This document shows, piece by piece, positions 15,929-35,858 of a DNA stretch of 64,000 nucleotides. Position numbers and translations under genes: made by a program. Source of the stretch: an uncultured virus (IMG/VR IMGVR_UViG_3300042973_000010) (lineage: Duplodnaviria; Heunggongvirae; Uroviricota; Caudoviricetes); IMG/VR virus record IMGVR_UViG_3300042973_000010; one strand, given 5' to 3'. Under the pieces are notes generated by a model. It worked only from the letters and a program-made list of their open reading frames with translations. It made no database searches and was not told the DNA's origin. Numbering within the stretch: position 1 is the stretch's first letter; every line of letters begins with the position of its first letter.

Positions 15929-18205
15929 TTACTGCAGAAAATCTTCCTCTGCGCCGCCCACCTCATGAATCTTTAAGCCCTTAAAATAGCGCTTCCGATT
16001 CAGTGTCAGCCGCTCGAATCCGGCTTTCTCCAGCGCAAAGTAAAAGTCTGCCGTGCTGCGCACATACTCATTGCAGTCCAGTGAGTAGTTGCGGTATGCC
16101 TGATAAAGTGCCGAGGAGCTTTCCTTAAAGGACTCATCCACATCGCACTTCTCGTCCAGAAAATGTCCGAACCAGTCGTTCTGGCTGCGATATTCATCGA
16201 TGGCCTTCGTCACGCAGTCCGGTACCGGAATCTGGTAGTCCAGCGCAATGACTTTTTTAGCACCTTCGATGATCCATGCCAGTATGCTTTCACCGGCATT
16301 TTCATACAGGTACTCACCGTAATTTTTGATGTCGGCCTTGCCCTCGATCTTGGCGTTGAACGGAATCACGATAAGCCTGCGCCAGATACCGTCATCGGAG
16401 GCGGAGACGCGAGGCAGGTGGTTCGTATATAGAACCAGCGTGTGGCAGGGCTTGAAGGAAAACGGGTCTTTATACTTTTTCTCCGCAAATACATCGTCCG
16501 TAGAGCAGAGCTGCTTGACGGTGGAGTCGTTGAGCCTTGCGCCTTCCTGCATTTCCGCAGCGATCAGCAGGCGTTTGCCTTTGACCTCAGCCATTTCCGG
16601 TTTGATGTTCCTGCGGCAGCCGACAGTCAGGGTGTCTGCGGATATATTTCCGCTGTAGAGTCCCAGCACGCGGGAGATGGCATTCCAGAAGGTGGATTTG
16701 CCGTTACGTCCATCGCCGTATGCGATGATGAGCGCCTCCACAAAAACTTTCCCGATAGCAGCAAGGCCGCAGATCATCTGTACATAGTCGATAAGCTGCT
16801 GATCCTTCTGAAAAATCAGATCCAGATTATCCTGCCAGAGCTGCGCTCCTTTACTTCCGGGTGACACGGACGTGATTTTCGTAATAAAGTCATCTGCTGA
16901 GTGCTCGCGGGCTCCGGCCATACCTTTACGAAGGTCGTAGGTCGCCTCCGGTGTGCAGAGCAGGAAGCAGTCCGCGTCTAGATCCCTTGGCGAGATTTCC
17001 AGCATCGGGTGCGTCTCTTTGAGGGTAGATGTAATGTTCTTGGAGTCGCGTCTACGGACGGCAAAGCTCTGGTAGGCCTTTGCAGGCAAGGAACTCCTGA
17101 TAGGCCTCCATCTGCTCGTCGCTCATCAGCTGTTCAGCTTTGGCCTTGGATGTGTTATCGAGTATTTCCTGCGCACCACAGTTTTTGAGCTTCTGCAGAG
17201 CCTCCATCATATTGCGATTGGCTTCTGCGAGCTGCCTGCGGGTGAGTTCATGAGCGACAGGCCTGTGCGCCGGGCTCTGTTTCCTGCCAGTAGTGATCGC
17301 TGTATCGGATAAAGTGTGTGGCTGGTGAGTAGCGCAGCTCGTTTGCAAAATACTTCGAGAGCACCTCGGCCTGTCCCGACGTCGGAAAAGTCCTCCGGCT
17401 TATAGCTGTTCTCTTCGTTATAGACTTCCGGAGGGACATATCCGTCCTCTCGGCTGATCTTGGAGTAAAAGCGCTGGGCGCTGTGCCAGATTGTACTAAG
17501 CTCGCTGTTATCCAGAGGCGGTACGCAGGTCGCGGCCTTTTCCAGAAAACTTTGGTAGGCTTTTTCCGTATCGCCGTATTTCTTTATGACGATACCGGCA
17601 AAGCGGGACATGGTAGCGTTGCGGCTTCCTTCCGGTATCACAACGTCTTTCTCGTGGCCACCGGGCAGGTCTGCATCGAACTCATCGTCATTCAAAAATT
17701 CCGTGAGGTTCATGCGACCGGGATAGAGCTCCACATTCGGCTCCTGTGTTCCGAAGAAGAAACGAGCAGCATCCAATGCCTTCGTATCGAAATACGGAAA
17801 TATGGAATTGACCAGCTTCTTCATATCGCTATAGAGGGCAGCATCCGTTACCCGGTCGATGGGAAAGAGCACATGGAACTTTGGCCTTGCCGGTTTGCCG
17901 TTTTTCTCGCGCTGATTAAAGCGGCTGTAATGGATGGCGAGGCTTACTCCCGGAAATGCCTCCAGCACGTCTGCCGGTGTGATCCAGTCTTTCGGATCTT
18001 CTGAATGGTCATTATCACAGTCCACGGGAAGACAGTCAGCGGAGAGGAAGTTGTCACTGTTGCGGTAGTGGTTTTTGTACTCCGCGCACACATAGTCGTG
18101 ACCGACTGCGTCTCTCATGCTGTCCGTATTCATGACAACGGTCTTATGCGGATAGGAGCAGTTTCCGGGATTGCCGATAAAATCGGCGCTAAACAGGGTA
18201 AACAT
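15929..18205 (-). CDS. P4-family primase-helicase (primase, PriCT, D5-like ATPase), split by apparent indels at 17050-17380
   Basis: DCDND primase motif, EGSRN PriCT, GDGRNGKST Walker A; C-terminus matches 63121..63981. Confidence 0.9.
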
Positions 18206-19006: not shown

Positions 19007-19039
19007 TTCCACTGGAGATGAACGCCTGATTTGAGCGGA
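19007..19039 (-). promoter_or_regulatory. Putative phage-sigma promoter TCCGCTCAAA-N11-TCTCCAGTGGAA
   Basis: Same boxes and spacing at 23504 and 35826. Confidence 0.7.
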
Positions 19040-19045
19040 CGATTT

Positions 19046-21045
19046 TTAATCTTTTTTGTAGAAGGGCGTGGACGTAACCGTCAGCGCGGAGCTTTCAGGC
19101 CTTTTGCCCACGGCGGAGTCCTGCCCATCTGTTCACAGAGAACATCAAGAGACATACGAGAGTCTGCTTCGATAACCAGTTCGTCGTGGATATGCATGAC
19201 GATGGAGCAGCAGCGCAGGGTCTTCATGGCATAGCAGAGAATGTCGCGGGAGGTTGCCTGCACGATATTTTCCACGAATTTCGGCCCGTATGAATCGAGC
19301 CGTTCCCATTTTTTCGTGCTGCCGATGCCCTCATAGGTGATACACTCGCCGCCGAATTTATTCGTGCCGACCTTTGGCTTTACATAGGCGAGGTTCCGTC
19401 CGGAGGGCAGCGTAATAAAGAGCATCCCGGAGCGGCAGGAGAAGGTAAGACCGTAGCTGCTGGTTGTGTGTTTATACTTCACAGCCTCCATGACAGCGCG
19501 GTCGACATCCCACCAGAATTTTACGATGTTGGGATTTGTCTGCCGCCATGCGTCCACCAGCGGAGGAAGCTCATCCTCGGAAAGTCCCATCTCTATAGCG
19601 CCCATTGCCTTTAAGGCACCGACCGAGCCGCCATAGCCGAGCGCGAGTTCCGCGATTTTGCCCTTTTGGCGCAGATGGCCGTTAATGCCATGTTTCTCAA
19701 CCGGAACATGGAACATCTGACTGGCACTGGCGCAGTAGATGTCACCTCCGGTTTCAAAGACCTTTTGACGCCACGTCTCACCGGCATACCACGCGATGAC
19801 TCTTGCTTCGATGGCGCTGAAGTCGGAAACATAAAACTGCGTACCGTCCTTCGGGATAAATGCTGTCCGGATCAGCTGAGAGAGGGTGTCCGGGACGTCT
19901 TCATATAGAAGCTTCACGGCATCGAAGTCGCCGGACTTCACAAGAGCACGGGCATCAGCCAGATCCGGGAGATGATTTTGCGGGAGGTTTTGCAATTGTA
20001 TAAGTCTGCCAGCCCAGCGCCCGGTACGGTTGGCTCCGTAAAATGCGAACATGCCGCGAGCCCTGCCGTCATCACAGACCGCTCGCTCCATCGTCTGGTA
20101 TTTCTTGACGGAGGATTTGGCAAGCTGCTGTCTAAGCTCCAGAACGGTCTGGAGCTCCGGAGGAGCAGTTTTAATAAGCTCTGCCACGACTTTCTTTCCA
20201 AGACTGTCAGTTTCGAGACCGTTGTCAGAGAGCCACTGTTTCATTTGCTGGACGGAGTTTGGGTTATCAAGTGCTGTCATATCTTTCATGGCAGCAGTCA
20301 GTTCTGACCGGGAGCGTGAGTCCATTTCGATGGCTTCCTTTACAAGATCCATGTCGAGCCGGACACCTCTGTCGTTGATTTCCTGATCGATGTGATATTC
20401 ATCCCAGACCTCCTCCGGTACGGGGAATTTGGCAAGACGATCTTTAATGCCGATCTCGGTTTCCACATCACGGATGTTATATTTTTTGAAGGCCTCCCAC
20501 TTGTCCGGTGCATGGAAAGGGTGGTTCCTCGTGCGACCGCCATTGGCCTTTGTCGGAGCACAGGGCACGGAGAAGTATTTGATCAGGTCTTTGCCTTCCG
20601 TGAGCTTCTGCTTTTCGAGGCCAAGGACGGCACCGACACCTTCCAGAGAAAGCGGAAGTCCCATTGTGGCCGCCCAGACCATAGAGCAGCGCCAGCTTTC
20701 TGAATTTAAAAATCGTGCGCATTCGGTCGAGAGAGGATGGTTATCACGGAAGGGATCAAGGCTTACTCCAAGATCACGGAGATACCGGGATAAGCACACC
20801 CGTTCAAAATTTGCATTGAAAGCCCATTTGATGACAGTATCATCAGTTAGGGCTTCTATGATTTCCTTCGGCAGGCGTTCTCCCTGTGCAAGGTCAATAA
20901 CCTGGACTTCATTTCCATCAAAGGAATAACCGAAGAGCAGAATCTCAAAGTTCGGAGATTCCGTGTATTTATAAACGCCGCACTTTGCCAGATTTACGTC
21001 GCTGTAGGTTTCAATATCGATACTGAGTGTTTTCATGGATTTCAC
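19046..21045 (-). CDS. Family A DNA polymerase (last codons disturbed by two apparent insertions)
   Basis: IDIETYS exonuclease, RTGRWAG, DFSAIEARV, KIAELALGYG, HIHDE. Confidence 0.93.
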
Positions 21046-21093
21046 CTCAATTCAAACAAGCGGCAGAGATTGCTCCCTGCCGCCTGCGTTGTG

Positions 21094-21279
21094 TTAGTTG
21101 TCAGAGTCCTTTTTGACTTTTGCTTCCTTGTCTTTCTTAGCAAGACGCTTTTTCTCATGCCTGTCTTCAATCCAAAACTTGATGGAGAGGAAAACACCGC
21201 TGATTAAAAAGCCTACCGTAGCTCCGAAGCAGACCGCTCCGAAGCAGACCGAGAGCATCATTGACTGATATGTTGTCAT
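21094..21279 (-). CDS. Small single-TM protein with basic tail
   Basis: Hydrophobic residues ~8-37 then a K-rich tail; RBS present; followed by a hairpin. Confidence 0.55.
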   Translation of the reverse strand: MTTYQSMMLSVCFGAVCFGATVGFLISGVFLSIKFWIEDRHEKKRLAKKDKEAKVKKDSDN

Positions 21280-21865: not shown

Positions 21866-22997
21866 TGTCGTTTTCCTCCATAAAATCATTTTTTGCTGTA
21901 TTCATGGCCGGGCGCTTGTCACTATCCGGCACAAGTGTGGGTTTGCCCTGTGGCTTTTCGATGTAAGCCGTCAGGAGTTCATCAAAGCGGGACTTGCCGA
22001 GGAGCTTCTGCATGGCGGTGATGCCGAGCAGCTTTTTCTCATACGGGTCAAAGCCTGCTTTCTCGACCGCATCAATGACGGCGGCCTCGTTGCTGTATCT
22101 GCGGTTGCTGCGTCCTTCGACGAGCTTAAAGCCAGTCCATTCCTTACCGGAGAGAGCCTGCTGCAGAGCGTATTCCTTAATATCGGAAGCCCAGCTAACC
22201 AGTTCATCTACCTTGCCGAGAATGACTTCGATCTCGGTATCCGTAAGCAGTGGCGGGAGCTTGAAATCATGCTGCGCGAGCTTCAGATTTGCCTCGGCTC
22301 TGGCGCGGCACTCGTTCTTAGCCTTACAGAAGCCGCACCATTCACCGCAGAGGAAATTCCCGTCACCGGCAAAGGCCAGATCTGCGGTAGGCTTCAATAC
22401 TTCATCTGCCCAGCGATACAGGTCGTCCTTGCTGATTTCGTAGGTGCTGACGTTTTGGCGTCTCGGTTGGTAAATGGTCATGGAAACCTGATCGATGTCG
22501 TAAATGTCATCGAAAAGCTCCAAAGCGCCGAGGGCATAACACTGCATCTGCGGATTCTCCTCTGCGGAGACTAAGACGCCTAAGCCGTGCTTGTAGTCGA
22601 TCACCCGGAGCGTACCGTCAGCGATGATGACGCAATCGGCGGTTCCGAAGCCCTGTTCTACCCAGCGGGAGAAATCTACACGCTGTTCGATAAGGACTAC
22701 CGGATCAGCGCAGATTTCCTTGGCGGCTTCGATCTGCTCCAGCACATATTCGGCATAGCCGGAGGTAGCATCCTCCATCTCCTCGGAATACCACTTGAGG
22801 TTGTCGGTTGGGTCTTCTGAAGGAAGTCCCAGCACCGTTTTCAATTTGTGCTCGCCAAGCGCATGAGCGTCGGTGCCTTCTGCAGCGTAGTCTGATCCTT
22901 TGTCCTCATAGGTTTCGCAGAGCCTTGCCGACGGCGGGCAGTGCAGCCACCTGTCGGAGCTGGACGCGGACAGGATTGCGTGTGCTTTAGCTGCCAT
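21858..22997 (-). CDS. DUF2800 (Cas4-like PD-(D/E)xK) nuclease
   Basis: LSASS..RWL.CPPS, FGTAD, IDYKHG, Q...YALG, C.FC.....C. Confidence 0.88.
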   Translation of the reverse strand: MAAKAHAILSASSSDRWLHCPPSARLCETYEDKGSDYAAEGTDAHALGEHKLKTVLGLPSEDPTDNLKWYSEEMEDATSGYAEYVLEQIEAAKEICADPVVLIEQRVDFSRWVEQGFGTADCVIIADGTLRVIDYKHGLGVLVSAEENPQMQCYALGALELFDDIYDIDQVSMTIYQPRRQNVSTYEISKDDLYRWADEVLKPTADLAFAGDGNFLCGEWCGFCKAKNECRARAEANLKLAQHDFKLPPLLTDTEIEVILGKVDELVSWASDIKEYALQQALSGKEWTGFKLVEGRSNRRYSNEAAVIDAVEKAGFDPYEKKLLGITAMQKLLGKSRFDELLTAYIEKPQGKPTLVPDSDKRPAMNTAKNDFMEENDNE

Positions 22998-23316
22998 TGC
23001 CGATCACCTCCGCGTCCTTCATCAGGGCTTCGTAGTTTGCCGGGTTGATCTCCGAGAGCTTTGCAGCACCGTACTTTTTAAGCAGGGCGCGTACCTCTGC
23101 GGTATGACCGGCGCGGGACTTTTCAGCAAGGACGGCTCTTACGTCCTCCAGCTTGAGTTCAAGCTTTGGTTTCTTCTTGGCGGGAGCCTCAGTGACTTTC
23201 GCTTCATCGTCATCACCGGAAAACTGCTGGTAGAGCCAGTCGGCTGCGGCATTAATAGAAGCAGCAGCGGTGCGGAGCTCTTCGATGGTCTGTGCCATTT
23301 CTGCCATCTTTGACAT
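22987..23316 (-). CDS. Conserved phage protein
   Basis: LEDVRAVLAEKSRAG...LLKKYGA.KLSEI motif; RBS. Confidence 0.75.
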   Translation of the reverse strand: MSKMAEMAQTIEELRTAAASINAAADWLYQQFSGDDDEAKVTEAPAKKKPKLELKLEDVRAVLAEKSRAGHTAEVRALLKKYGAAKLSEINPANYEALMKDAEVIGNGS

Positions 23317-23461
23317 TTTCTTTTCCTCCTTCCTCGGATTGGCTTGCGGCAAGGAGTGAGAGGTTCCTTGCCAGTCTGGCGGATACGTGGCTGATAGAAT
23401 TCAGGAGCTTGATCTCCTCGTTCACGTTGCCGCCTGTGTCTGCGTAACTGCGGTACATCAT
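23252..23461 (-). CDS. Small hypothetical protein
   Basis: GAGG RBS; first gene after the 23504 motif. Confidence 0.55.
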   Translation of the reverse strand: MMYRSYADTGGNVNEEIKLLNSISHVSARLARNLSLLAASQSEEGGKENVKDGRNGTDHRRAPHRCCFY

Positions 23462-23503
23462 GTTCACCTCGCTTTCTGAAGGCTGTGTTCTCTTGCCTTC
23501 ACC

Positions 23504-23536
23504 TTCCACTGGAGATGAACTGCCGATTTGAGCGGA
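23504..23536 (-). promoter_or_regulatory. Putative phage-sigma promoter, directly downstream of the sigma gene terminator
   Basis: TCCGCTCAAA-N11-TCTCCAGTGGAA. Confidence 0.7.
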
Positions 23537-23545
23537 GGATTTTAT

Positions 23546-23589
23546 AAAAAAATTCCGACCATCATCCCAAGGTGGGACAATGGCCGGAA
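23546..23589 (-). terminator. Intrinsic terminator after the sigma-like gene
   Basis: TTCCGGCCAT...ATGGTCGGAA stem followed by a T run. Confidence 0.65.
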
Positions 23590-23601
23590 AGGGTGTGATG
23601 A

Positions 23602-24126
23602 TTACTTGTTTTCGATCTTATGAAGCTCGGTGTAGTAGCGCTTCATTTGGTCAGCAAAGGTACGCTGCGGGCGACCGAGGGCTTCCGCGATCTTACGATC
23701 TGAAATCTTAGGATTGTCGAGGCGCATCTGGATAATGCGGTCTGCATCCGGATCAAGTTCGCGGAACCGGGCAATGAGGTGTTTGAGCAAATCGCGGTCA
23801 GCAATAATATCTTCTATAGAAGGTCTGCTGTCCGGAATGTAATCTCCAAGAGTGCCGTTGCCGTCCGGAAGCGGCTCGTCGAGAGAAGTGGTATCGGGAG
23901 CGTGGTATTCGCACAGGTCGCACTGCCCGTCGCATTTCCAGAGATAGCGTTTGGTGCACATGCAACGTCCATGATATTGCTCGCGTTTTTGTGTTGCCCA
24001 GATATCTGGATAGAGGGAACGATACTGCTCCTCGGTGATAGGGGTGAGTGTGACCTTGAAGGGATTCTCCGGGTCACGAAGTGGAAAGTAACGCTTGTTG
24101 TCATTGTTTTTCTTAGAATTTTTCAT
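23602..24126 (-). CDS. Phage sigma-70 region-4-like transcription factor with a Cys cluster
   Basis: CDGQCDLCEY, SLDEP, C-terminal SDRKIAEALGRPQRT HTH. Confidence 0.72.
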   Translation of the reverse strand: MKNSKKNNDNKRYFPLRDPENPFKVTLTPITEEQYRSLYPDIWATQKREQYHGRCMCTKRYLWKCDGQCDLCEYHAPDTTSLDEPLPDGNGTLGDYIPDSRPSIEDIIADRDLLKHLIARFRELDPDADRIIQMRLDNPKISDRKIAEALGRPQRTFADQMKRYYTELHKIENK

Positions 24127-24300
24127 TTTCGGTTCCTTTCTGAGCGAAAGGAGCCGAGAGAACGCAAAGCCGAAGTCATAAGAAACACAAATGGCCGGAT
24201 AACTCTGAAACATTGTGTTTCAAAGTCATCCGGCCATTTGGTAGTTCATCTCGACTCCGTTGCTCGGTATGCTTTGCGTATTAAGTTTTCGATTCAGTTG

Positions 24301-24495
24301 TTACATTCCTGCCTGCATTGCGTAAGCAGCAATACGGTTGTGGGAGGATTCCTTTACTGCTGACTCATCGCAAAGGATTTTTACGATGTGATTGCAGTTA
24401 GGACACTTGAGCTCGATGTACAGCTTTTCCTTCGGAATATCTGATACATCGCAGGCTCTCTTTCCACAAACGGGACATTTGAGCGGCTTGTTCAT
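24301..24495 (-). CDS. Com-like zinc-finger protein
   Basis: LKCPVCGK...IELKCPNCNH; strong AAGGAGG RBS. Confidence 0.65.
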   Translation of the reverse strand: MNKPLKCPVCGKRACDVSDIPKEKLYIELKCPNCNHIVKILCDESAVKESSHNRIAAYAMQAGM

Positions 24496-24510
24496 GCCTT
24501 CCTCCTTTCT

Positions 24511-24544
24511 TGTAGTATATAAGCGTGTTCGCTGATTTACTACA
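24511..24544. promoter_or_regulatory. 34-bp dyad operator upstream of the Com-like gene
   Basis: TGTAGTA-N3-AAGCG-TGTT-CGCTG-N3-TACTACA; second copy at 25742..25775. Confidence 0.7.
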
Positions 24545-24592
24545 CCTATGGTAAAAAATATGGGAATGCACCTGTGAGAGCACATTCCCGTG

Positions 24593-25342
24593 CTAACAAA
24601 AATATTCGTCGAGAGATAGTTCCTCTCTGGATACCAGTTTTAATTCCTGAAGCCGGTATTTCATGGGTGTGTAGTTGACACTGAATTTCTCGGCCAGTTC
24701 AGAAATTGCCTGATCGACATCGTAGGTTTTCGGAAGTGGTGCAGGCGGTGATGAACGTAAGCCCATTGTCTTAAGAAATTCAGCTGTGGCTGCCTCCCGT
24801 GGCATCAGGAATGCAGCAGCGCAGTAATTGGCTTGGTATTCAATGACCTCGATAGCGGACATGTTTGACCTGTCTCCGGTCTCTGCGCGGAAGGCTTTCT
24901 TCTGGCAGAAGTGCTGGTAATTTGCTGACCGATTCATAAAGCAGCGTGTATGAAGCTTCTGATGGAAGCATTCATGAATGCAGCTGAAGTTCTCGATTCC
25001 GCGATTGTCGCCCTCGTTGATACTCCGATCAATGATGATAGTTCCCTTCTCGACAGGAGTCTTTTTGGGAAACATCCCATTGAATACGATGTTGTCTGGC
25101 GGAGTCTCGTCGGCTTCATTGATGGGAATCCAAGCATAGTAGTAGCCGTTGTTGTAGGCTGTCATTCCAAGAATCGACTGATCCGGTGACAAGTAAAACC
25201 AGTCTGGCGTGCAGTGGATAAAATCCACCACGTCATATACATCAATTTTCTTAGGCCGGATAAGGCGTTCTTTGTCAAAAGACTCGTTCAGGCTGTCCGC
25301 CTCATTTTCGAGCTGGGTTTTGCTGTAGTCATAGTACCGCAA
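24593..25342 (-). CDS. ImmA/IrrE-family metallopeptidase
   Basis: HECFH (HExxH) and EYQANYCAAAFLMP; TTG start after GGAGG. Confidence 0.88.
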   Translation of the reverse strand: MRYYDYSKTQLENEADSLNESFDKERLIRPKKIDVYDVVDFIHCTPDWFYLSPDQSILGMTAYNNGYYYAWIPINEADETPPDNIVFNGMFPKKTPVEKGTIIIDRSINEGDNRGIENFSCIHECFHQKLHTRCFMNRSANYQHFCQKKAFRAETGDRSNMSAIEVIEYQANYCAAAFLMPREAATAEFLKTMGLRSSPPAPLPKTYDVDQAISELAEKFSVNYTPMKYRLQELKLVSREELSLDEYFC

Positions 25343-25343
25343 A

Positions 25344-25727
25344 TTACGTGTTGCCTCCGTTTTTTTCCTGATTTTCCAGCATGTCAATAATTTTCTGCCA
25401 ATCATCCTCACCGGCATTGATGTCACGTGCTTTACGAAGAGCAGTGCGGAGATTTCCGACACCCATCACATAGTCAGATAGATCAGGAGATACGCCGTTA
25501 TCTCTTGAGAGGGCAGCGTAGTCGAATAGCGTATTTGTGTCATCTTCGTTGAGACCCAGCACCTCAGCGATTTTATAGATTTTGTCTTTGTCTGGCGGAT
25601 ACCTCCTTCCTTTTTCAATATCGCTCATGTAAGCAGGGACAATGCCCAGCTCCTCGGCAAGCTTTCGCAGGCTGATTTCTTTCTCCTGCCTTTTGGCTTT
25701 TACAAATTCTCCGAATTTGTTTTCCAT
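25344..25727 (-). CDS. XRE-family HTH repressor (ImmR-like)
   Basis: FGEFVKAKR...SLRKLAEELGI...YMSDIEKG; paired with ImmA. Confidence 0.88.
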   Translation of the reverse strand: MENKFGEFVKAKRQEKEISLRKLAEELGIVPAYMSDIEKGRRYPPDKDKIYKIAEVLGLNEDDTNTLFDYAALSRDNGVSPDLSDYVMGVGNLRTALRKARDINAGEDDWQKIIDMLENQEKNGGNT

Positions 25728-25741
25728 GACGATCCTCCTTT

Positions 25742-25807
25742 CGTAGCATGTAAGCATGTTCGCTTAAATACTACACTAAGTATACACAGTTGCTTCAACG
25801 AAGTCAA
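25742..25807 (-). promoter_or_regulatory. SigA-type promoter of the repressor with a downstream dyad operator
   Basis: TTGACT-17-TATACT (25807..25779); operator 25742..25775. Confidence 0.72.
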
Positions 25808-26003
25808 GGGCTCAAATGTAAATTTTCTTTAAACGGTGGCACATGCCCTTAGCAAAAAGCAGGCGAGGAAATCTACAGTAGTACAGTGAACATGGGCTAT
25901 TTCTCAGACCTTCCGCGTTCGACCGTCTAAGAAGTGGAAGTATTTTTATTGCGGTACACGAGATATTTAATGCGCAAATGCAAATTTTTAATCTGAAATC
26001 AGG

Positions 26004-26032
26004 TTGAAATCTCTCGGCTGATGTGTTATAAT
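26004..26032 (+). promoter_or_regulatory. SigA-type promoter of HTH-hsdM
   Basis: TTGAAA-17-TATAAT with extended TGn. Confidence 0.7.
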
Positions 26033-26082
26033 TTATAAGGCGTCTTTTGCCGATAGGACTCTAATGGTTAGGAGGAGAATAC

Positions 26083-26304
26083 ATGGCAGTCAGCTATAAG
26101 AAATTATGGAAATTACTAATTGATAAAAATATGAAGAAAAAGGACTTAAGAGCTGCCAGCGGGATCAGCACAACAACACTTGCGAAACTTGGCAAGGATG
26201 AAAACGTCAGTACTGAAATCCTGTCGAAGATTTGTGCTGCCCTGAACTGTGATGTCGGAGACATCATGGAAATGGTGCCCGATGATTCGAAGGATGTGGA
26301 ATAA
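26083..26304 (+). CDS. Cro/C1-type (HTH_26-like) regulator
   Basis: MAVSYKKLWKLLIDK...KICAALNCDVGDIME. Confidence 0.88.
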   Translation: MAVSYKKLWKLLIDKNMKKKDLRAASGISTTTLAKLGKDENVSTEILSKICAALNCDVGDIMEMVPDDSKDVE

Positions 26305-27090
26305 ATGAATGGCAAAGACAATAAACAGACAAGGAGTTTTTTAAATATGAATCAGTCAACGTATAACGCATTGAAATCCTTTATCTGGGGAATCGCTAAC
26401 GATTGCCTTGTAGATGTATATGATGTGGGCGACTACAGGAAGGTCATTCTTCCGATGCTGGTCATCCGCCGTTTTGATGCGGTCTTGGAGCTGAAGCACG
26501 ATGAAGTGGTAGCGGCAAAGAAGAAATTCGAGAAGGACGGAGTCACTGTCGATATTGATCCTGCGCTCTGCGGAATAGCTGGACAGGCCTTTGTGAACAA
26601 GTCTGACTTCACGCTGCGTGACTTGAAGTCCAGAACGAATCAACAGCAGCTCCGGAAGGACTTCATCGACTACCTCGATGGATTTTCCAAAAATGTACAG
26701 GAGATCATTAATAAGTTTCATTTCCGGGATCAGATTCCGCGCCTTTCCGAGCAGGATAGGCTTGGATTGCTTATCGAGAAATTTGTCGATCCGAGCATCA
26801 ACCTCAGCAATAAGCCTGTTCTAAATGAGGACGGCTCTGAAAAATTGGAGGCACTTGATAATCATACAATGGGTACCCTGTTTGAAGAGGTTATCCGTAT
26901 GTTCAATGAGCAGACAAATGTGACAGACGCCGGACGCCACTTTACGCCGCGTGACATTATCGAGCTCATGGCCGACCTTGCCTTTATCCCGATTCAGGAT
27001 AAGATTCAGAGCACCACATATAGAATTTATGAAATCAAGACGCAAAATTGGATACAATTTAACGATTGCCCTCTCAGGGGTGTCGCTTGA
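26305..27090 (+). pseudogene. hsdM: Type I R-M methyltransferase subunit, 5' fragment truncated near 27030
   Basis: FIW.IA, ILP...RR.D, MGTLFEE.IR.F, AGRHFTPR; expected D..CG.GG motif after RIY is replaced by an unrelated 19-aa tail. Confidence 0.88.
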
Positions 27091-31813: not shown

Positions 31814-33397
31814 TTATGCCCGAATTTCCTGTCCATTGCGGAAGGTGAAGCGGATGTCGTCATTGGCGTAGATCGTCAGGTGATCGACGAGTCCGTTGAA
31901 GGCATCGAGGGAGAATTCCGTCAGGCTCTCGGGCGTGTTTTCGAATGCCTTGAGGAAGTCCTCGTACCCAGCTTTCCGGGATTGAGTTTCTTCGATTTTT
32001 GCGGTGAGCTCTTCGATGCGGGTCTTGAGCTTATCGTACCGGTCGGCAAGGTCGTCGTAGCGCTTCTTATAGGCGTTCTGGTCGAGAGCCGTCCGGGCGT
32101 TCTCCACGATGTTTTGCTGCACTGCGTCCGCCACCATCTGTGCCTCATCCAGGAGCCGGTCGCGCTCGGCTTCCAGTTCGTCGGTCTTGAAGAGGAACGG
32201 TAGCATCTCTTTGCCGTTGGCGATGACCTCGGTTTTTGTTTCAAGCAGCTTGTTCACCGCCGAGAGGAACGCGGTTTTCACTTCGCTGTCGTCTATGGCT
32301 GGCGTGGTGCATTTCTTGCAGCCATCGTATTTATGGTTACAGCGCCAGATAGTTTTCCGATATTTGCTGTTGGAATGCCAGACCTTGGAGCCGTAGAAGG
32401 AGCCGCACTGCCCGCAGCGGATTTTGCTGGAGAAGACGTGTACGCCGCTGTGGTACATGATGCCGTTGCCGCGCTTCTTCATCTCGCGCTGGACCAGGTC
32501 GAAGGTCTCCGGTGCGATGATCGCTTCATGGTCGCCTTCCACGTAGTACTGCGGGATTTCGCCCTCGTTGACCTTCGTCTTTTTCGTGAGGTAGTCGACT
32601 GTGTAGGATTTCTGCAGCAGGGCGTCGCCCTTGTATTTCTCGTTTCCGAGGATGGACTTGACGGTACTGATGCTCCAGTGATCCTTGCCGCCGGGTGTCT
32701 TGATGCCGTCATTGGTAAGCTGCTTGGCGATGCCGTTGTAGGTCAGGCCCTGCAGGAAGAGCCGGTAGATGCGGCGGACGGTTTCTGCCTCCTCTGGGTT
32801 GACGATGAGCTCGCCATTCGGACCGCGGTCGTAGCCGAGAAACCGGTGGAACGGAACCGTCACCTTGCCGTCTGCGAATCGCTTACGTTGTCCCCAGGTG
32901 CAGTTCTCGGAAATGCTACGGGATTCCTCCTGCGCAAGGCTCGACATGATGGTGATCAGCAATTCACCTTTTCCGTCGAAGGTCCAGATGTTCTCCTTCT
33001 CGAAGTAGCATTCGACGCCGTTTTCCTTGAGCTTTCGGATGGTTGTCAGGCTGTCGACGGTGTTCCGGGCGAATCGGCTGACGCTCTTGGTGACGATCAG
33101 GTCGATCTTCCCGGCAAGCGCGTCCTCGATCATGTTCTGGAATCCAATTCTCTTCTTGATGCCGGTTCCGCTGATTCCCTCGTCCGTGTAGACATTCACG
33201 AATTCCCAGTCATCACGGCTTTTGATGTAGTTCGTGTAGTAGTCGATTTGCGCCTCGTAGCTGGTGAACTGGTCGTCATGGTCTGTTGAGACGCGGGCGT
33301 ATCCGGCGACCCTGCGCTTTTTCTTCTCTGTGATGGGAGTGGAGGAAAAGCGCGTCCGGGATGCCGGGATCGTGGTCACTTTCTTTTGCTGCTCCAA
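31814..33397 (-). CDS. Large serine recombinase
   Basis: YARVST, DEGISG, KSVSRFARN, AQEESRSISEN, CGQCG Zn ribbon. Confidence 0.95.
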   Translation of the reverse strand: MEQQKKVTTIPASRTRFSSTPITEKKKRRVAGYARVSTDHDDQFTSYEAQIDYYTNYIKSRDDWEFVNVYTDEGISGTGIKKRIGFQNMIEDALAGKIDLIVTKSVSRFARNTVDSLTTIRKLKENGVECYFEKENIWTFDGKGELLITIMSSLAQEESRSISENCTWGQRKRFADGKVTVPFHRFLGYDRGPNGELIVNPEEAETVRRIYRLFLQGLTYNGIAKQLTNDGIKTPGGKDHWSISTVKSILGNEKYKGDALLQKSYTVDYLTKKTKVNEGEIPQYYVEGDHEAIIAPETFDLVQREMKKRGNGIMYHSGVHVFSSKIRCGQCGSFYGSKVWHSNSKYRKTIWRCNHKYDGCKKCTTPAIDDSEVKTAFLSAVNKLLETKTEVIANGKEMLPFLFKTDELEAERDRLLDEAQMVADAVQQNIVENARTALDQNAYKKRYDDLADRYDKLKTRIEELTAKIEETQSRKAGYEDFLKAFENTPESLTEFSLDAFNGLVDHLTIYANDDIRFTFRNGQEIRA

Positions 33398-35169
33398 TGT
33401 TTCTCACTCCTTATTCTCTTCATGTTTTCGCTGATTTTCTGCCTGCGTTCCGGTGTGAAGCTGTCTCGGATGGCTTTGGTCTGCTTTTCGCGGCGCTCGT
33501 CCGTCCATGGGATGCCTTCCTTACGGAATTCGTAGTCGCGCCCGACAGTCGAGCCATCTTTGAGATGGAATGTAAGATGCGTCAGCCCGCGGACCGAGAT
33601 GAAGTCGATGCATTCCTTGAATGCTTCCTCGCTGAATTCCTCAAGACCCAGCACCTGTGTGATGATTTCCTTCAGATGATCCTCACGCAGGCTTTTGCCG
33701 GGATGGTTTTTCTTGTCGGCGCACTTCCAATAGGCGTTCTGGTGGCCGTCGGCCATGACGCATGTCTGCTTGCGGTAGTTGCAGCCGCATTCCTCGCAGC
33801 GGATCTTCGTGGTGAAGCAGGTGATATCGTCACGGGTGACCGGGTGCCGTCTGCGGTACTGAGATGCACGCTTCCGATTCTCCTCAGTCCACGATTCCTT
33901 TTTCGCATTCCGGTACCAGTGGTGTTCAAGCGTGGTGCCGTCCGTGAATTCGAAGATCATCGTCCCGGACTCAGGAACCGTAATCCGTTCGACACGCTCA
34001 GAGAAGATGTCCTCGTCAAATTCCGGGATGCCGAGCACCTTGGCGCATTCCTCTTTGAGGACGCTTTCGCGGATCGTTCCGCTGCTGCAGGACGAGCAGT
34101 TTGTTTTCTTGTGTGAGGTGCAGGCCCAGAAGGTGTATTTCTCTCCGAGCCTGCTCATCTTTGCTCGGTTCCTCCGTGTGGAGCGGACGAAACTTCTGCC
34201 GCATTGTCCGCATTTGATTTTCGTGGAGAAGCAGTTCAGGGTGAGCGCCTTGTTGCCAAAGCAGCCAAGCTCCCTGCGCCGCGCCATTTCGGCCTGCACG
34301 TAGTCGAATGTTTCCTTGCTGATGATGGCCGGATGCGTGTTCTCCACATAGTATTGCGGCAGCTCGCCGCGGTTCTTCTTGACCTTCTTCGTGATCGGAT
34401 CAGCGATGTATTCCTTTTGGTAGAGCATGTTGCCCGTGTAGGTAACGTTCGTGAGGATCACCTTCAGATTGGAATCCACCCACGGCGCTCCGGCACGCGT
34501 CTTGATGCCTTCGGCGGCGAATTCCTTCTCGGTTTCCTGCCGGGATTTCCCGTCAAGGAAGTTCTGGTAGATGCGGCGTACGATGGCGGCCTCCTCCGGG
34601 ACGATGACCATCTCGTCACTTTCCCACCGGTACCCGTAGACGTTCATGTGACCGTTTGCATAAGGCAGTCCGGCCTGCATCCTTTTGCGGATTCCCCACT
34701 TCACATTGTTGGAGATGCTTTCGGTTTCAGACTGTGCAAATGAGGCGAGCAAGGTGAGCATGACCTCGCCGTCACCGGAAAGCGAGTTTATGTGCTCCTT
34801 TTCGAACCGCACCTCAATGCCCAGCTCCTTGAGATGCCGGACGGTCTCCAGCAGGTCGACCGTGTTCCGCGCGAACCTGCTGATGCTCTTGGTGAGGATG
34901 ATGTCTATCTTCCCGGCTTCGCAGTCAGCGAGCATACGCTGGAACTCAGGCCGTTTCATGGTGCTTGTACCGGTGATGCCTTCGTCCGCGTAGACACCTG
35001 CATACTGCCATTCCGGATTCTTCTGGATCAGCTCCGAGTAGTAGCTGACCTGTGCGGAGAGGGAATGGTGCAGGCGCTCGGTCTCCATCGACACACGCGC
35101 GTATGCCGCCACCTTCTTCCGCTGTGGTAGAGCCTTGATTTTAGGCTCAATTTTCGTGATTTTCGGCAT
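33376..35169 (-). CDS. Large serine recombinase (second, with two Zn-ribbon regions)
   Basis: YARVSM, KSISRFARN, CGQCG and CEECG. Confidence 0.93.
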   Translation of the reverse strand: MPKITKIEPKIKALPQRKKVAAYARVSMETERLHHSLSAQVSYYSELIQKNPEWQYAGVYADEGITGTSTMKRPEFQRMLADCEAGKIDIILTKSISRFARNTVDLLETVRHLKELGIEVRFEKEHINSLSGDGEVMLTLLASFAQSETESISNNVKWGIRKRMQAGLPYANGHMNVYGYRWESDEMVIVPEEAAIVRRIYQNFLDGKSRQETEKEFAAEGIKTRAGAPWVDSNLKVILTNVTYTGNMLYQKEYIADPITKKVKKNRGELPQYYVENTHPAIISKETFDYVQAEMARRRELGCFGNKALTLNCFSTKIKCGQCGRSFVRSTRRNRAKMSRLGEKYTFWACTSHKKTNCSSCSSGTIRESVLKEECAKVLGIPEFDEDIFSERVERITVPESGTMIFEFTDGTTLEHHWYRNAKKESWTEENRKRASQYRRRHPVTRDDITCFTTKIRCEECGCNYRKQTCVMADGHQNAYWKCADKKNHPGKSLREDHLKEIITQVLGLEEFSEEAFKECIDFISVRGLTHLTFHLKDGSTVGRDYEFRKEGIPWTDERREKQTKAIRDSFTPERRQKISENMKRIRSEKHWSSKRK

Positions 35170-35197
35170 TGTATCACTCCTTTCGTCTTGTCTATCT

Positions 35198-35224
35198 ATC
35201 ACTCTGTTTCAGACACATAGCAAG
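35198..35224 (-). promoter_or_regulatory. Repeated promoter-like motif (copy 3), upstream of the recombinases
   Basis: CTTGCTA-N12-AGAGTGAT. Confidence 0.65.
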
Positions 35225-35825: not shown

Positions 35826-35858
35826 TTCCACTGGAGAAAGGGCGGGAGTTTGAGCGGA
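35826..35858 (-). promoter_or_regulatory. Putative phage-sigma promoter for the recombination module
   Basis: TCCGCTCAAA-N11-TCTCCAGTGGAA. Confidence 0.7.

What the first reader, a model, noticed from the sequence alone, without database searches (positions are those of the whole stretch)
24126..24495. Com-like Zn finger followed by a structured leader that appears to lock the phage sigma gene
Seen: the 174-nt gap between the Com-like gene and the sigma-like gene has a long stem (CAAATGGCCGGAT at 24188 and its complement at 24228, with an inner stem) followed by TGTTTCTT on the minus strand. A second hairpin (24129..24157, TCGGCTCCTTTC/GAAAGGAACCGA) buries the AAAGGA Shine-Dalgarno. Known: Mu Com is a Zn-finger RNA-binding protein that opens a hairpin occluding mom translation. 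Inference: a Com-like RNA switch (antitermination and/or translational activation) gates the lytic sigma factor. I do not know this circuit as described in such prophages.
Basis: partly seen in the sequence, partly recalled or inferred. Interest (0 to 1): 0.75.

Follow-up and report, generated by a model that had tools for sequence, protein, structure and literature searches.

The report
Zinc-ribbon antiterminator switch before phage sigma
In front of this prophage's sigma-like regulator lies a conserved RNA switch that folds either into a transcription stop signal or into a read-through shape, and the small zinc protein encoded just upstream, a distant relative of phage Mu Com, is the likely key that holds it open.

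Summary
The hairpins are real. In 78 distinct relatives it keeps 97.4% of pairs, with 108 two-sided changes against 26 in shuffles, and the same bases covary with the terminator. A zinc-ribbon gene lies upstream of 83 of 102 leaders found by DNA pattern alone (controls 0 of 102, 0 of 90). The protein resembles Mu Com (HHalign 96.8%) but misses the PF10122 cut-off. RNA contigs from three studies stop at the terminator (weak hint). Best reading: after derepression the protein holds the antiterminator and polymerase reads into the sigma-like gene, as LicT does on RAT; binding is inferred, not shown. The Shine-Dalgarno hairpin is a second, subfamily-specific lock, possibly opened by refolding after read-through. 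No Rfam family or paper found. The scan noted similar zinc-ribbon/leader/sigma arrangements on other DNA before.

The parts
25779..25807 (-). Promoter-like site (TTGACT-17-TATACT) of the immR-immA unit
   Evidence: RNA contigs X7 and X8 both begin at 25762
25743..25776 (.). Palindromic operator-like site, copy 1, just behind the immR promoter
   Evidence: D1, 82% identical to copy 2; in related elements the two copies change together (read by eye)
25344..25727 (-). XRE-type repressor (ImmR-like)
   Evidence: HTH_3 E 9e-11
24593..25372 (-). ImmA/IrrE-like metallopeptidase (anti-repressor by inference)
   Evidence: Peptidase_M78 E 4e-6
24562..24589 (-). Terminator-like hairpin after immA
   Evidence: -16.2 kcal/mol, z -4.6; RNA contigs X4, X7, X8 run across it
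24512..24545 (.). Palindromic operator-like site, copy 2, in front of the zinc-ribbon gene
24301..24495 (-). 64-aa CxxC...CxxC zinc-ribbon protein, distant relative of Mu Com; proposed antiterminator protein
   Evidence: HHalign to Com 94.5% / 96.8%; four-strand model, pLDDT about 88 over residues 1-40; co-occurrence with the leader
24227..24271 (-). Antiterminator. Outer helix P0: 24271-24262 with 24234-24227, bulged A at 24268 and 24264. Inner hairpin H1: 24258-24253 with 24247-24240, bulged A at 24246 and 24242. In this window P0 can extend (24276-24272 with 24225-24221)
   Evidence: single strong copy in the window
24180..24240 (-). Long intrinsic-terminator-type hairpin and U-rich tail; its 5' arm is the antiterminator's 3' strand
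   Evidence: RNA contigs stop at 24232, 24237, 24244
24166..24189 (-). Second, imperfect copy of the terminator 3' arm: tail 24189-24182 pairs with 24221-24214 (AT2); element a (24175-24166) pairs with either the H1 5' strand or the lower 5' arm
24129..24159 (-). Shine-Dalgarno-sequestering hairpin; its 5' strand b (24159-24150) is also complementary to the H1 5' strand (24258-24249)
23602..24126 (-). 174-aa sigma-70-like HTH regulator, first gene behind the switch
   Evidence: 33 of 55 downstream genes in relatives hit sigma-70 region 4
23553..23589 (-). Terminator-like hairpin after the sigma-like gene
   Evidence: a related-strain RNA contig (X1) ends at 23585
23509..23535 (-). CCGCTCAAA-N-CTCCAG motif heading the replication operon; candidate promoter for the sigma-like protein (inference)
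   Evidence: 3 copies in the window, 0 expected; seen after the sigma gene in most of the 18 loci printed

Best explanation
A protein-held transcription antiterminator that gates the prophage's sigma-like regulator. Shown by sequence comparison: the leader has two mutually exclusive folds, a weak 45-nt antiterminator that forms first on the nascent RNA and a strong terminator that takes over its 3' strand about 35 nt later. Inferred: without enough zinc-ribbon protein the terminator wins and transcription ends before the sigma-like gene; when ImmA removes the repressor, more zinc-ribbon protein is made, binds the two bulged-A half-sites (one a Com-type GAGC/GCC core, one a C...GA hairpin loop), keeps the antiterminator closed, and polymerase reads through. 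Inferred, weaker (about 0.45): in the subfamily of this window the read-through RNA then refolds (5' arm slides onto the second 3'-arm copy, H1 opens and captures the anti-Shine-Dalgarno strand), so only antiterminated RNA is translated and leak-through RNA stays locked.
For: Covariation: 78 distinct sequences, 97.4% of cells paired (shuffled 85.3), 108 two-sided changes (26), slid controls 17-40%; RNAalifold finds the same core unaided. One base pairs with its upstream partner in 80 of 85 leaders (shuffled 46.9, max 60) and with the terminator 3' arm in 81 of 85. On a tree of 45 zinc-ribbon proteins each paired column changes 7-12 times, joint-change ratio 0.75-0.91 against a control median of 0.43 over 131 pairs. 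The antiterminator piece folds with P0 in 95 of 95 and H1 in 93 of 95 non-redundant leaders; 83 of 95 have 5 or more U in the 8 nt after the stem. It is the lowest-energy fold of the window's nascent RNA up to 24203 and is displaced afterwards. Coupling: zinc-ribbon ORF upstream of 83 of 102 pattern hits, 89 of 95 well-formed leaders by HMM; leader behind 24 of the 26 best zinc-ribbon loci from genomes and 17 of 18 viral loci given; four loci with a 93-97% identical sigma have lost both parts. The only model hit in 101 genomes has immA, zinc ribbon, leader and a next gene in order. L062, L040, L045, outside the search pattern, change 'invariant' pairs on both sides. Com likeness (controls 17.5% and 1.2%). 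RNA contigs of three studies stop at the terminator's 5' arm. Second layer: Shine-Dalgarno open in 1 of 25 free folds, 17 of 25 with AT2 forced, 0 of 25 with the H1 strand barred.
Against: No binding, termination or reporter data. Keeping the antiterminator costs a median 11.7 kcal/mol (window 13.1) against 6.6 reported for LicT (PMC5393181), a lot for a 64-aa protein. The strict Com motif CC(N)2-3GAG is met in 2 of 95 leaders, the window's H1 has UC...GAA, and Com binds its motif weakly inside a duplex (PMC6483171). Six of 95 well-formed leaders have no zinc ribbon upstream; L048 has the gene but no leader in the DNA held. The invariant columns are fixed by the search pattern, so their invariance is partly circular, and the zinc HMM was built from genes found beside these leaders. 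RNA contigs cover the zinc-ribbon gene while ending at the terminator, so its mRNA can be present without read-through; contig ends are not transcript ends, a related-strain contig also begins at 24239, and no DNA run was laid. The translation-open fold is 31 kcal/mol above the minimum in the window (about 10 in the subfamily mean), and most pairs of the second layer never vary.
Confidence: 0.72

Rival explanations
1. Mu-type translational activation: the protein binds the leader and directly opens the Shine-Dalgarno hairpin; the long hairpin is structural and does not terminate.
For: Com homology; real Shine-Dalgarno hairpin; imperfect U tract in this window; H1 5' strand is complementary to the anti-Shine-Dalgarno strand in 21 of 25 subfamily leaders.
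Against: Holding the antiterminator leaves the Shine-Dalgarno closed in 25 of 25; many members have long U tracts and some have no Shine-Dalgarno hairpin; RNA contigs stop at the hairpin.
Confidence: 0.1
2. The terminator/antiterminator switch is real but is set by something else (a host or phage factor, polymerase speed, ribosomes on the upstream ORF); the zinc-ribbon gene is only a linked neighbour.
For: Six of 95 leaders lack the gene; the antiterminator forms unaided on the nascent RNA; linkage alone does not show binding.
Against: Gene and leader are gained and lost together while the sigma gene stays; they stay together when an extra ORF separates them and spacing varies from about 5 to over 200 nt, which argues against ribosome coupling; three of the six exceptions carry a similar cysteine-free ORF in that place and two look like a chance match and a chimeric contig.
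Confidence: 0.1
3. The protein binds the antiterminator-shaped RNA as a loading site and modifies polymerase for processive antitermination (lambda N/nut-like, recalled), instead of only blocking hairpin formation.
For: The large energy gap would not have to be paid by binding alone; the central loop is sequence-invariant.
Against: The site physically shares its 3' strand with the terminator and those bases covary both ways, which a loading site does not need; one strong copy in the window.
Confidence: 0.06
4. The inverted repeats act as DNA sites or are a chance feature.
For: A 10-bp arm motif recurs after the sigma gene.
Against: G-U tolerant, compensatory, long-range pairing with two alternative partners is an RNA signature.
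Confidence: 0.02

Closest known systems
BglG/LicT/SacY antitermination on RAT (PMC5393181 passages; PMC3369936 part 1 of 2)
   Same: A weak hairpin with two recognition features whose 3' end is shared with the 5' arm of a long intrinsic terminator; it folds first and is invaded unless a protein holds it.
   Different: Here 45 nt against 29-33; half-sites are bulged adenines; the candidate protein is a 64-aa zinc ribbon with no CAT or PRD domain; control appears to be protein amount after derepression, not phosphorylation; the target is a phage regulator.
Phage Mu com-mom (Com, PF10122; PMC6483171 abstract, passages, sections 15 and 18)
   Same: Small CCCC zinc finger encoded just upstream of its target RNA; profile-level homology; GCC/GAGC core and C...GA loop occur in both RNAs.
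   Different: Com opens a translation-inhibition hairpin over the mom start; here the site overlaps a terminator about 100 nt before the start codon; loop mostly longer; no PF10122 score; regulated gene is sigma-like, not mom.
ANTAR (EutV, NasR, AmiR) antitermination (PMC3369936)
   Same: Two sites, the downstream strand overlapping a terminator.
   Different: ANTAR uses two tandem hairpins with A1/G4 loops and a helical domain; here the helices are nested and the protein is a beta zinc ribbon.
ImmR/ImmA switch of ICEBs1-type elements and Tn916 attenuation ahead of orf7/orf8 (recalled; only search listings seen)
   Same: Repressor and metallopeptidase upstream; attenuation ahead of a sigma-like gene in a mobile element.
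   Different: Tn916 attenuation is, as recalled, ribosome- and tetracycline-driven; no Com-like protein is part of those models as I recall them.

Membership tests
Com family / com-mom switch | Small N-terminal CCCC zinc finger, about 60 aa | tested here: met
   64 aa, C7 C10 C31 C34 conserved in 88 relatives; four-strand model
Com family / com-mom switch | PF10122 score above cut-off | tested here: not met
   Not listed for the window protein; among 60 of 150 relatives scanned, 2 list it, both below cut-off (only the best 5 families per protein were shown)
Com family / com-mom switch | Profile homology to Mu Com beyond the cysteines | tested here: met
   94.5%, E 8e-8 to Com; 96.8%, E 2.9e-10 to 21 Com sequences; two other zinc motifs of the window 17.5% and 1.2%; Atlas lists a PF10122 cluster at 0.92, rank 23
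Com family / com-mom switch | Target hairpin with CC(N)2-3GAG loop | tested here: inconclusive
   Strict motif 2 of 95; CC...GAG with longer loop 64 of 95; C...GA loop 88 of 95; GAGC/GCC in P0 95 of 95 but largely fixed by the search pattern
Com family / com-mom switch | Binding site adjoins the translation-inhibition hairpin of the regulated gene | tested here: not met
   The site overlaps a terminator; holding it does not open the Shine-Dalgarno in 25 of 25
Com family / com-mom switch | Regulated gene is mom or a DNA-modifying enzyme | tested here: not met
   33 of 55 downstream ORFs hit sigma-70 region 4, 4 HTH_11, 18 nothing
Com family / com-mom switch | Specific RNA binding by the protein | not testable with these tools
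   Needs EMSA or footprinting
BglG/LicT RAT antitermination | Antiterminator 3' end shared with terminator 5' arm, mutually exclusive | tested here: met
BglG/LicT RAT antitermination | Intrinsic terminator with U tract | tested here: met
   83 of 95 with 5 or more U in 8 nt; termination itself only hinted at
BglG/LicT RAT antitermination | 29-33-nt RAT with its two conserved internal loops | tested here: not met
   45 nt, bulged-A half-sites; Rfam gave only miRNA-type hairpin matches far below gathering score
BglG/LicT RAT antitermination | Cognate protein with CAT and PRD domains | tested here: not met
   No such hit for the neighbouring proteins scanned
BglG/LicT RAT antitermination | Dimer binds the two sites | not tested
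   The homodimer prediction could not be run
ANTAR antitermination | ANTAR domain protein and tandem hairpins with A1/G4 loops | tested here: not met
   No ANTAR hit; nested helices

The most novel reading that the evidence does not exclude
A branch of the Com zinc-finger family acts as transcription antiterminators in prophages and related elements of Bacillota, on an uncatalogued two-fold RNA element, and in one subfamily read-through triggers a co-transcriptional refolding chain that releases the protein and unlocks translation. The lytic regulator would then be made only from RNA that passed the terminator with the protein bound: a two-key commitment switch in a swappable gene-plus-leader cassette.
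Probability: 0.4. Interest if true: 0.85.

Novelty: new variant of a known kind. Interest (0 to 1): 0.72.

Why it matters
It would add a new protein/RNA pair to the short list of protein-held antiterminators and give the widespread, mostly unassigned Com-like genes (role 'remains to be explored', PMC6240691) a function other than translational activation. It places a second checkpoint between repressor cleavage and the regulator that heads replication genes in a family of prophages of Bacillota. The parts are small (64 aa, under 150 nt) with exact pairings predicted, so it is directly testable and could serve as a compact orthogonal switch.

Tried and rejected
Rfam at E up to 5 over 22500-27000: only miRNA-type hairpin matches far below gathering score. 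Phage collection blastn: 1 record, 23% of the query. PDB sequence search and Foldseek in PDB and BFVD: nothing at E 0.001 or better; top PDB rows are 47-50-residue ribosome chains, not used as evidence. First fold from 10 sequences was poor (pLDDT 59). My first terminator finder missed real hairpins and sometimes picked the second arm copy, so those per-leader energies are approximate. A family-wide test for translational release by barring the terminator arm opened only 10 of 50 closed Shine-Dalgarno sites and not the window's; release shows only in the 25-leader subfamily, and in the window only with AT2 forced. Partner-swap tests of the second layer gave small margins (for example AT2 -6.2 cognate, -4.6 non-cognate). 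L230, L235, L299, L340 were left out of alignment A2 as probable chance pattern hits; they are included's 85 rows. Absence of RNA cover over the sigma gene in X7 and X8 is not counted as evidence on its own. The window's own genome is not held. Homodimer prediction was not obtained. The 203-aa ORF starting at 24213 is the sigma frame extended into the hairpin, with no ribosome site seen; rejected as the start. Literature: 9 searches and supplement look-ups found no description of this element; files 7 and 8 of PMC8040213 and the whole supplement of PMC5737381 could not be searched and might list the motif.

Full report
Setting. The locus is the early control region of a prophage. On the minus strand: XRE repressor (25727), ImmA-like peptidase, 64-aa zinc ribbon (24495-24301), 174-nt gap, 174-aa sigma-like HTH protein (24126-23602), then DUF2800, ssDNA-binding protein, PolA, SNF2 helicase, methylase, terminase, portal and tail genes. 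Close relatives lie in records titled Clostridia and other Bacillota. A palindrome occurs before both the repressor and the zinc-ribbon gene, and the two copies change together in related elements (by eye); I infer that it is the repressor's operator.

Observation. Rfam has no matching family.

Relatives. I collected loci three ways. By the sigma protein: 23 viral loci; 7 carry this leader and the zinc-ribbon gene, and four whose sigma is 93-97% identical carry neither, so gene and leader form a swappable cassette. By the zinc ribbon: 44 genome and 50 viral loci; the RNA model hits 24 of the 26 best genome loci and 17 of the 18 viral loci I gave it. By a DNA pattern alone: 110 and 119 stretches, 151 unique with the window; of 102 with at least 450 nt upstream, 83 have a CxxC...CxxC ORF on the same strand within 600 nt, against 0 of 102 antisense and 0 of 90 downstream. 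Among 95 well-formed leaders an HMM built from those ORFs finds 89 (partly circular). The next gene hits sigma-70 region 4 in 33 of 55 complete ORFs, HTH_11 in 4, nothing in 18.

The hidden element. The conserved core upstream of the long hairpin folds into a nested structure: outer helix P0 (window 24271-24262 with 24234-24227, two bulged A) and inner hairpin H1 (24258-24240, two bulged A, loop C...GA). On 81 aligned sequences (78 distinct; four probable chance hits left out) 97.4% of cells pair, 108 cells show changes on both sides against 26 in shuffles, and slid registers give 17-40%. RNAalifold predicts the same core unaided. The 3' strand of P0 is the 5' arm of the terminator, and the first variable base there pairs with its P0 partner in 80 of 85 leaders and with the terminator's 3' arm in 81 of 85 (shuffled 47). 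This three-way covariation is the mark of a switch. On a tree of 45 zinc-ribbon proteins the paired columns change 7-12 times, mostly jointly (0.75-0.91; control median 0.43, two of 131 controls at 0.8 or more, both within H1). Loci outside the search pattern (L062, L040, L045) change the otherwise fixed pairs on both sides and fold the same way; L051 folds only in part. The single model hit in 101 genomes sits behind an immA-like and a zinc-ribbon gene and ahead of a U-tailed hairpin. The window has one strong copy.

Folding order. In the window the antiterminator is the lowest-energy fold of the growing RNA until 24203; the terminator then wins by about 15 kcal/mol at 24193 and 23 at 24187. 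Family-wide the cost of keeping P0 at the end of the 3' arm is a median 11.7 kcal/mol over 94 leaders. LicT/RAT behaves the same way with a reported cost of 6.6 (PMC5393181, passages), so the gap here is large and counts against simple stabilisation. The antiterminator piece folds with P0 in 95 of 95 and H1 in 93 of 95 non-redundant leaders, and 83 of 95 have at least 5 U in the 8 nt after the stem.

The protein. It folds as a four-strand zinc ribbon with a disordered tail. It does not score as PF10122, but its profile aligns to Mu Com at 94.5% and to a Com alignment at 96.8%, with two control zinc motifs at 17.5% and 1.2%. Com recognises CC(N)2-3GAG in a hairpin loop, the A being key, and binds two motifs better than one (PMC6483171, sections 15 and 18); the mom site reads GCC...GAGC. 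The leader has GAGC paired with GCC around a bulged A in P0 and a C...GA loop in 88 of 95 H1 hairpins, but the strict Com motif in only 2 of 95. Binding is therefore an inference from homology, motif likeness and linkage.

RNA data. Four runs of four studies were laid, all as contigs. X7 and X8 give one contig each from 25762, just behind the predicted immR promoter, to 24237 and 24244; X4 ends at 24232; no loose ends there, while DNA loci L001-L003 and L024 run across. A related-strain contig in X1 spans 24239-23585, crossing the hairpin and ending at the post-sigma terminator. This fits termination with occasional read-through, but contig ends are not transcript ends, X1 also breaks at that place, and no DNA run was laid: a weak hint.

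Second layer. In a subfamily (39 leaders, 25 non-redundant, including the window) the terminator's 3' arm is followed by an imperfect second copy and by an anti-Shine-Dalgarno strand complementary to H1's 5' strand. The Shine-Dalgarno is open in 1 of 25 free folds, 0 of 25 with the terminator or the antiterminator forced, 17 of 25 once the 5' arm is paired with the tail (AT2), and 0 of 25 if the H1 strand is then barred. The H1 loop covaries with element a at two or three positions, but most pairs never vary and the open state is metastable (31 kcal/mol above the minimum here). A family-wide version of the test opened only 10 of 50. So the protein does not appear to open the ribosome site directly; if it is opened, it is by refolding after read-through. 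I give this about 0.45.

Comparison and novelty. It works like BglG/LicT on RAT and is not a member; the protein is Com-related and the circuit is not com-mom; it is not ANTAR (PMC3369936, part 1 of 2). Nine library searches found no description; the searchable supplements of PMC8040213 lack the motif (files 7 and 8 not searched) and that of PMC5737381 could not be read. PMC6240691 (passages) calls the wider role of com-like genes unexplored. Earlier notes of this scan describe zinc-ribbon/leader/sigma arrangements on other DNA; none matched this sequence. They are leads, not support.

Verdict. Real, conserved and mechanistically specific: a terminator/antiterminator RNA switch (about 0.9) most likely held open by the adjacent Com-like zinc ribbon (about 0.72 overall). 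New variant of a known kind; interest 0.72.

Noticed in passing
window 400-25800 and 31814-64000: Two sets of terminase, portal, methylase, SNF2 and tape-measure genes: two related prophages in tandem, with two serine recombinases (31814-35202) and a MarR/MATE and HsdM fragment between them.
   Followed up: partly
window 19012-19038, 23509-23535, 35831-35857 (-): CCGCTCAAA-N-CTCCAG occurs three times (0 expected) and follows the sigma gene in related loci; candidate promoters of the sigma-like protein.
   Followed up: partly
L128, L251, L276 upstream of the leader; L154, L171, L209, L246, L307 downstream: Small cysteine-free ORFs stand where the zinc-ribbon gene would be, or directly behind the leader; possible zinc-free counterparts or cascades.
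   Followed up: no
L004, L006, L007, L013-L023 upstream of the sigma gene: The same sigma family sits behind several other leaders, some visibly structured and with GAGC motifs; L017 has another zinc-ribbon subfamily with a leader my model does not hit.
   Followed up: partly
L032, L034, L036, L037, L041, L081, L084: A short basic Ser/Lys-rich ORF is inserted between the zinc-ribbon gene and the leader.
   Followed up: no
L242 96-235, L301: Two leader copies in tandem, each with its own terminator.
   Followed up: no
window 15929-18205, 19081-21197: The primase/helicase region is split over two frames and the polA end looks shifted; frameshifts or sequence errors.
   Followed up: no
window 23605-24126: The sigma-like protein has four invariant cysteines (C55, C65, C69, C72) in 8 aligned relatives, a possible metal site.
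   Followed up: no
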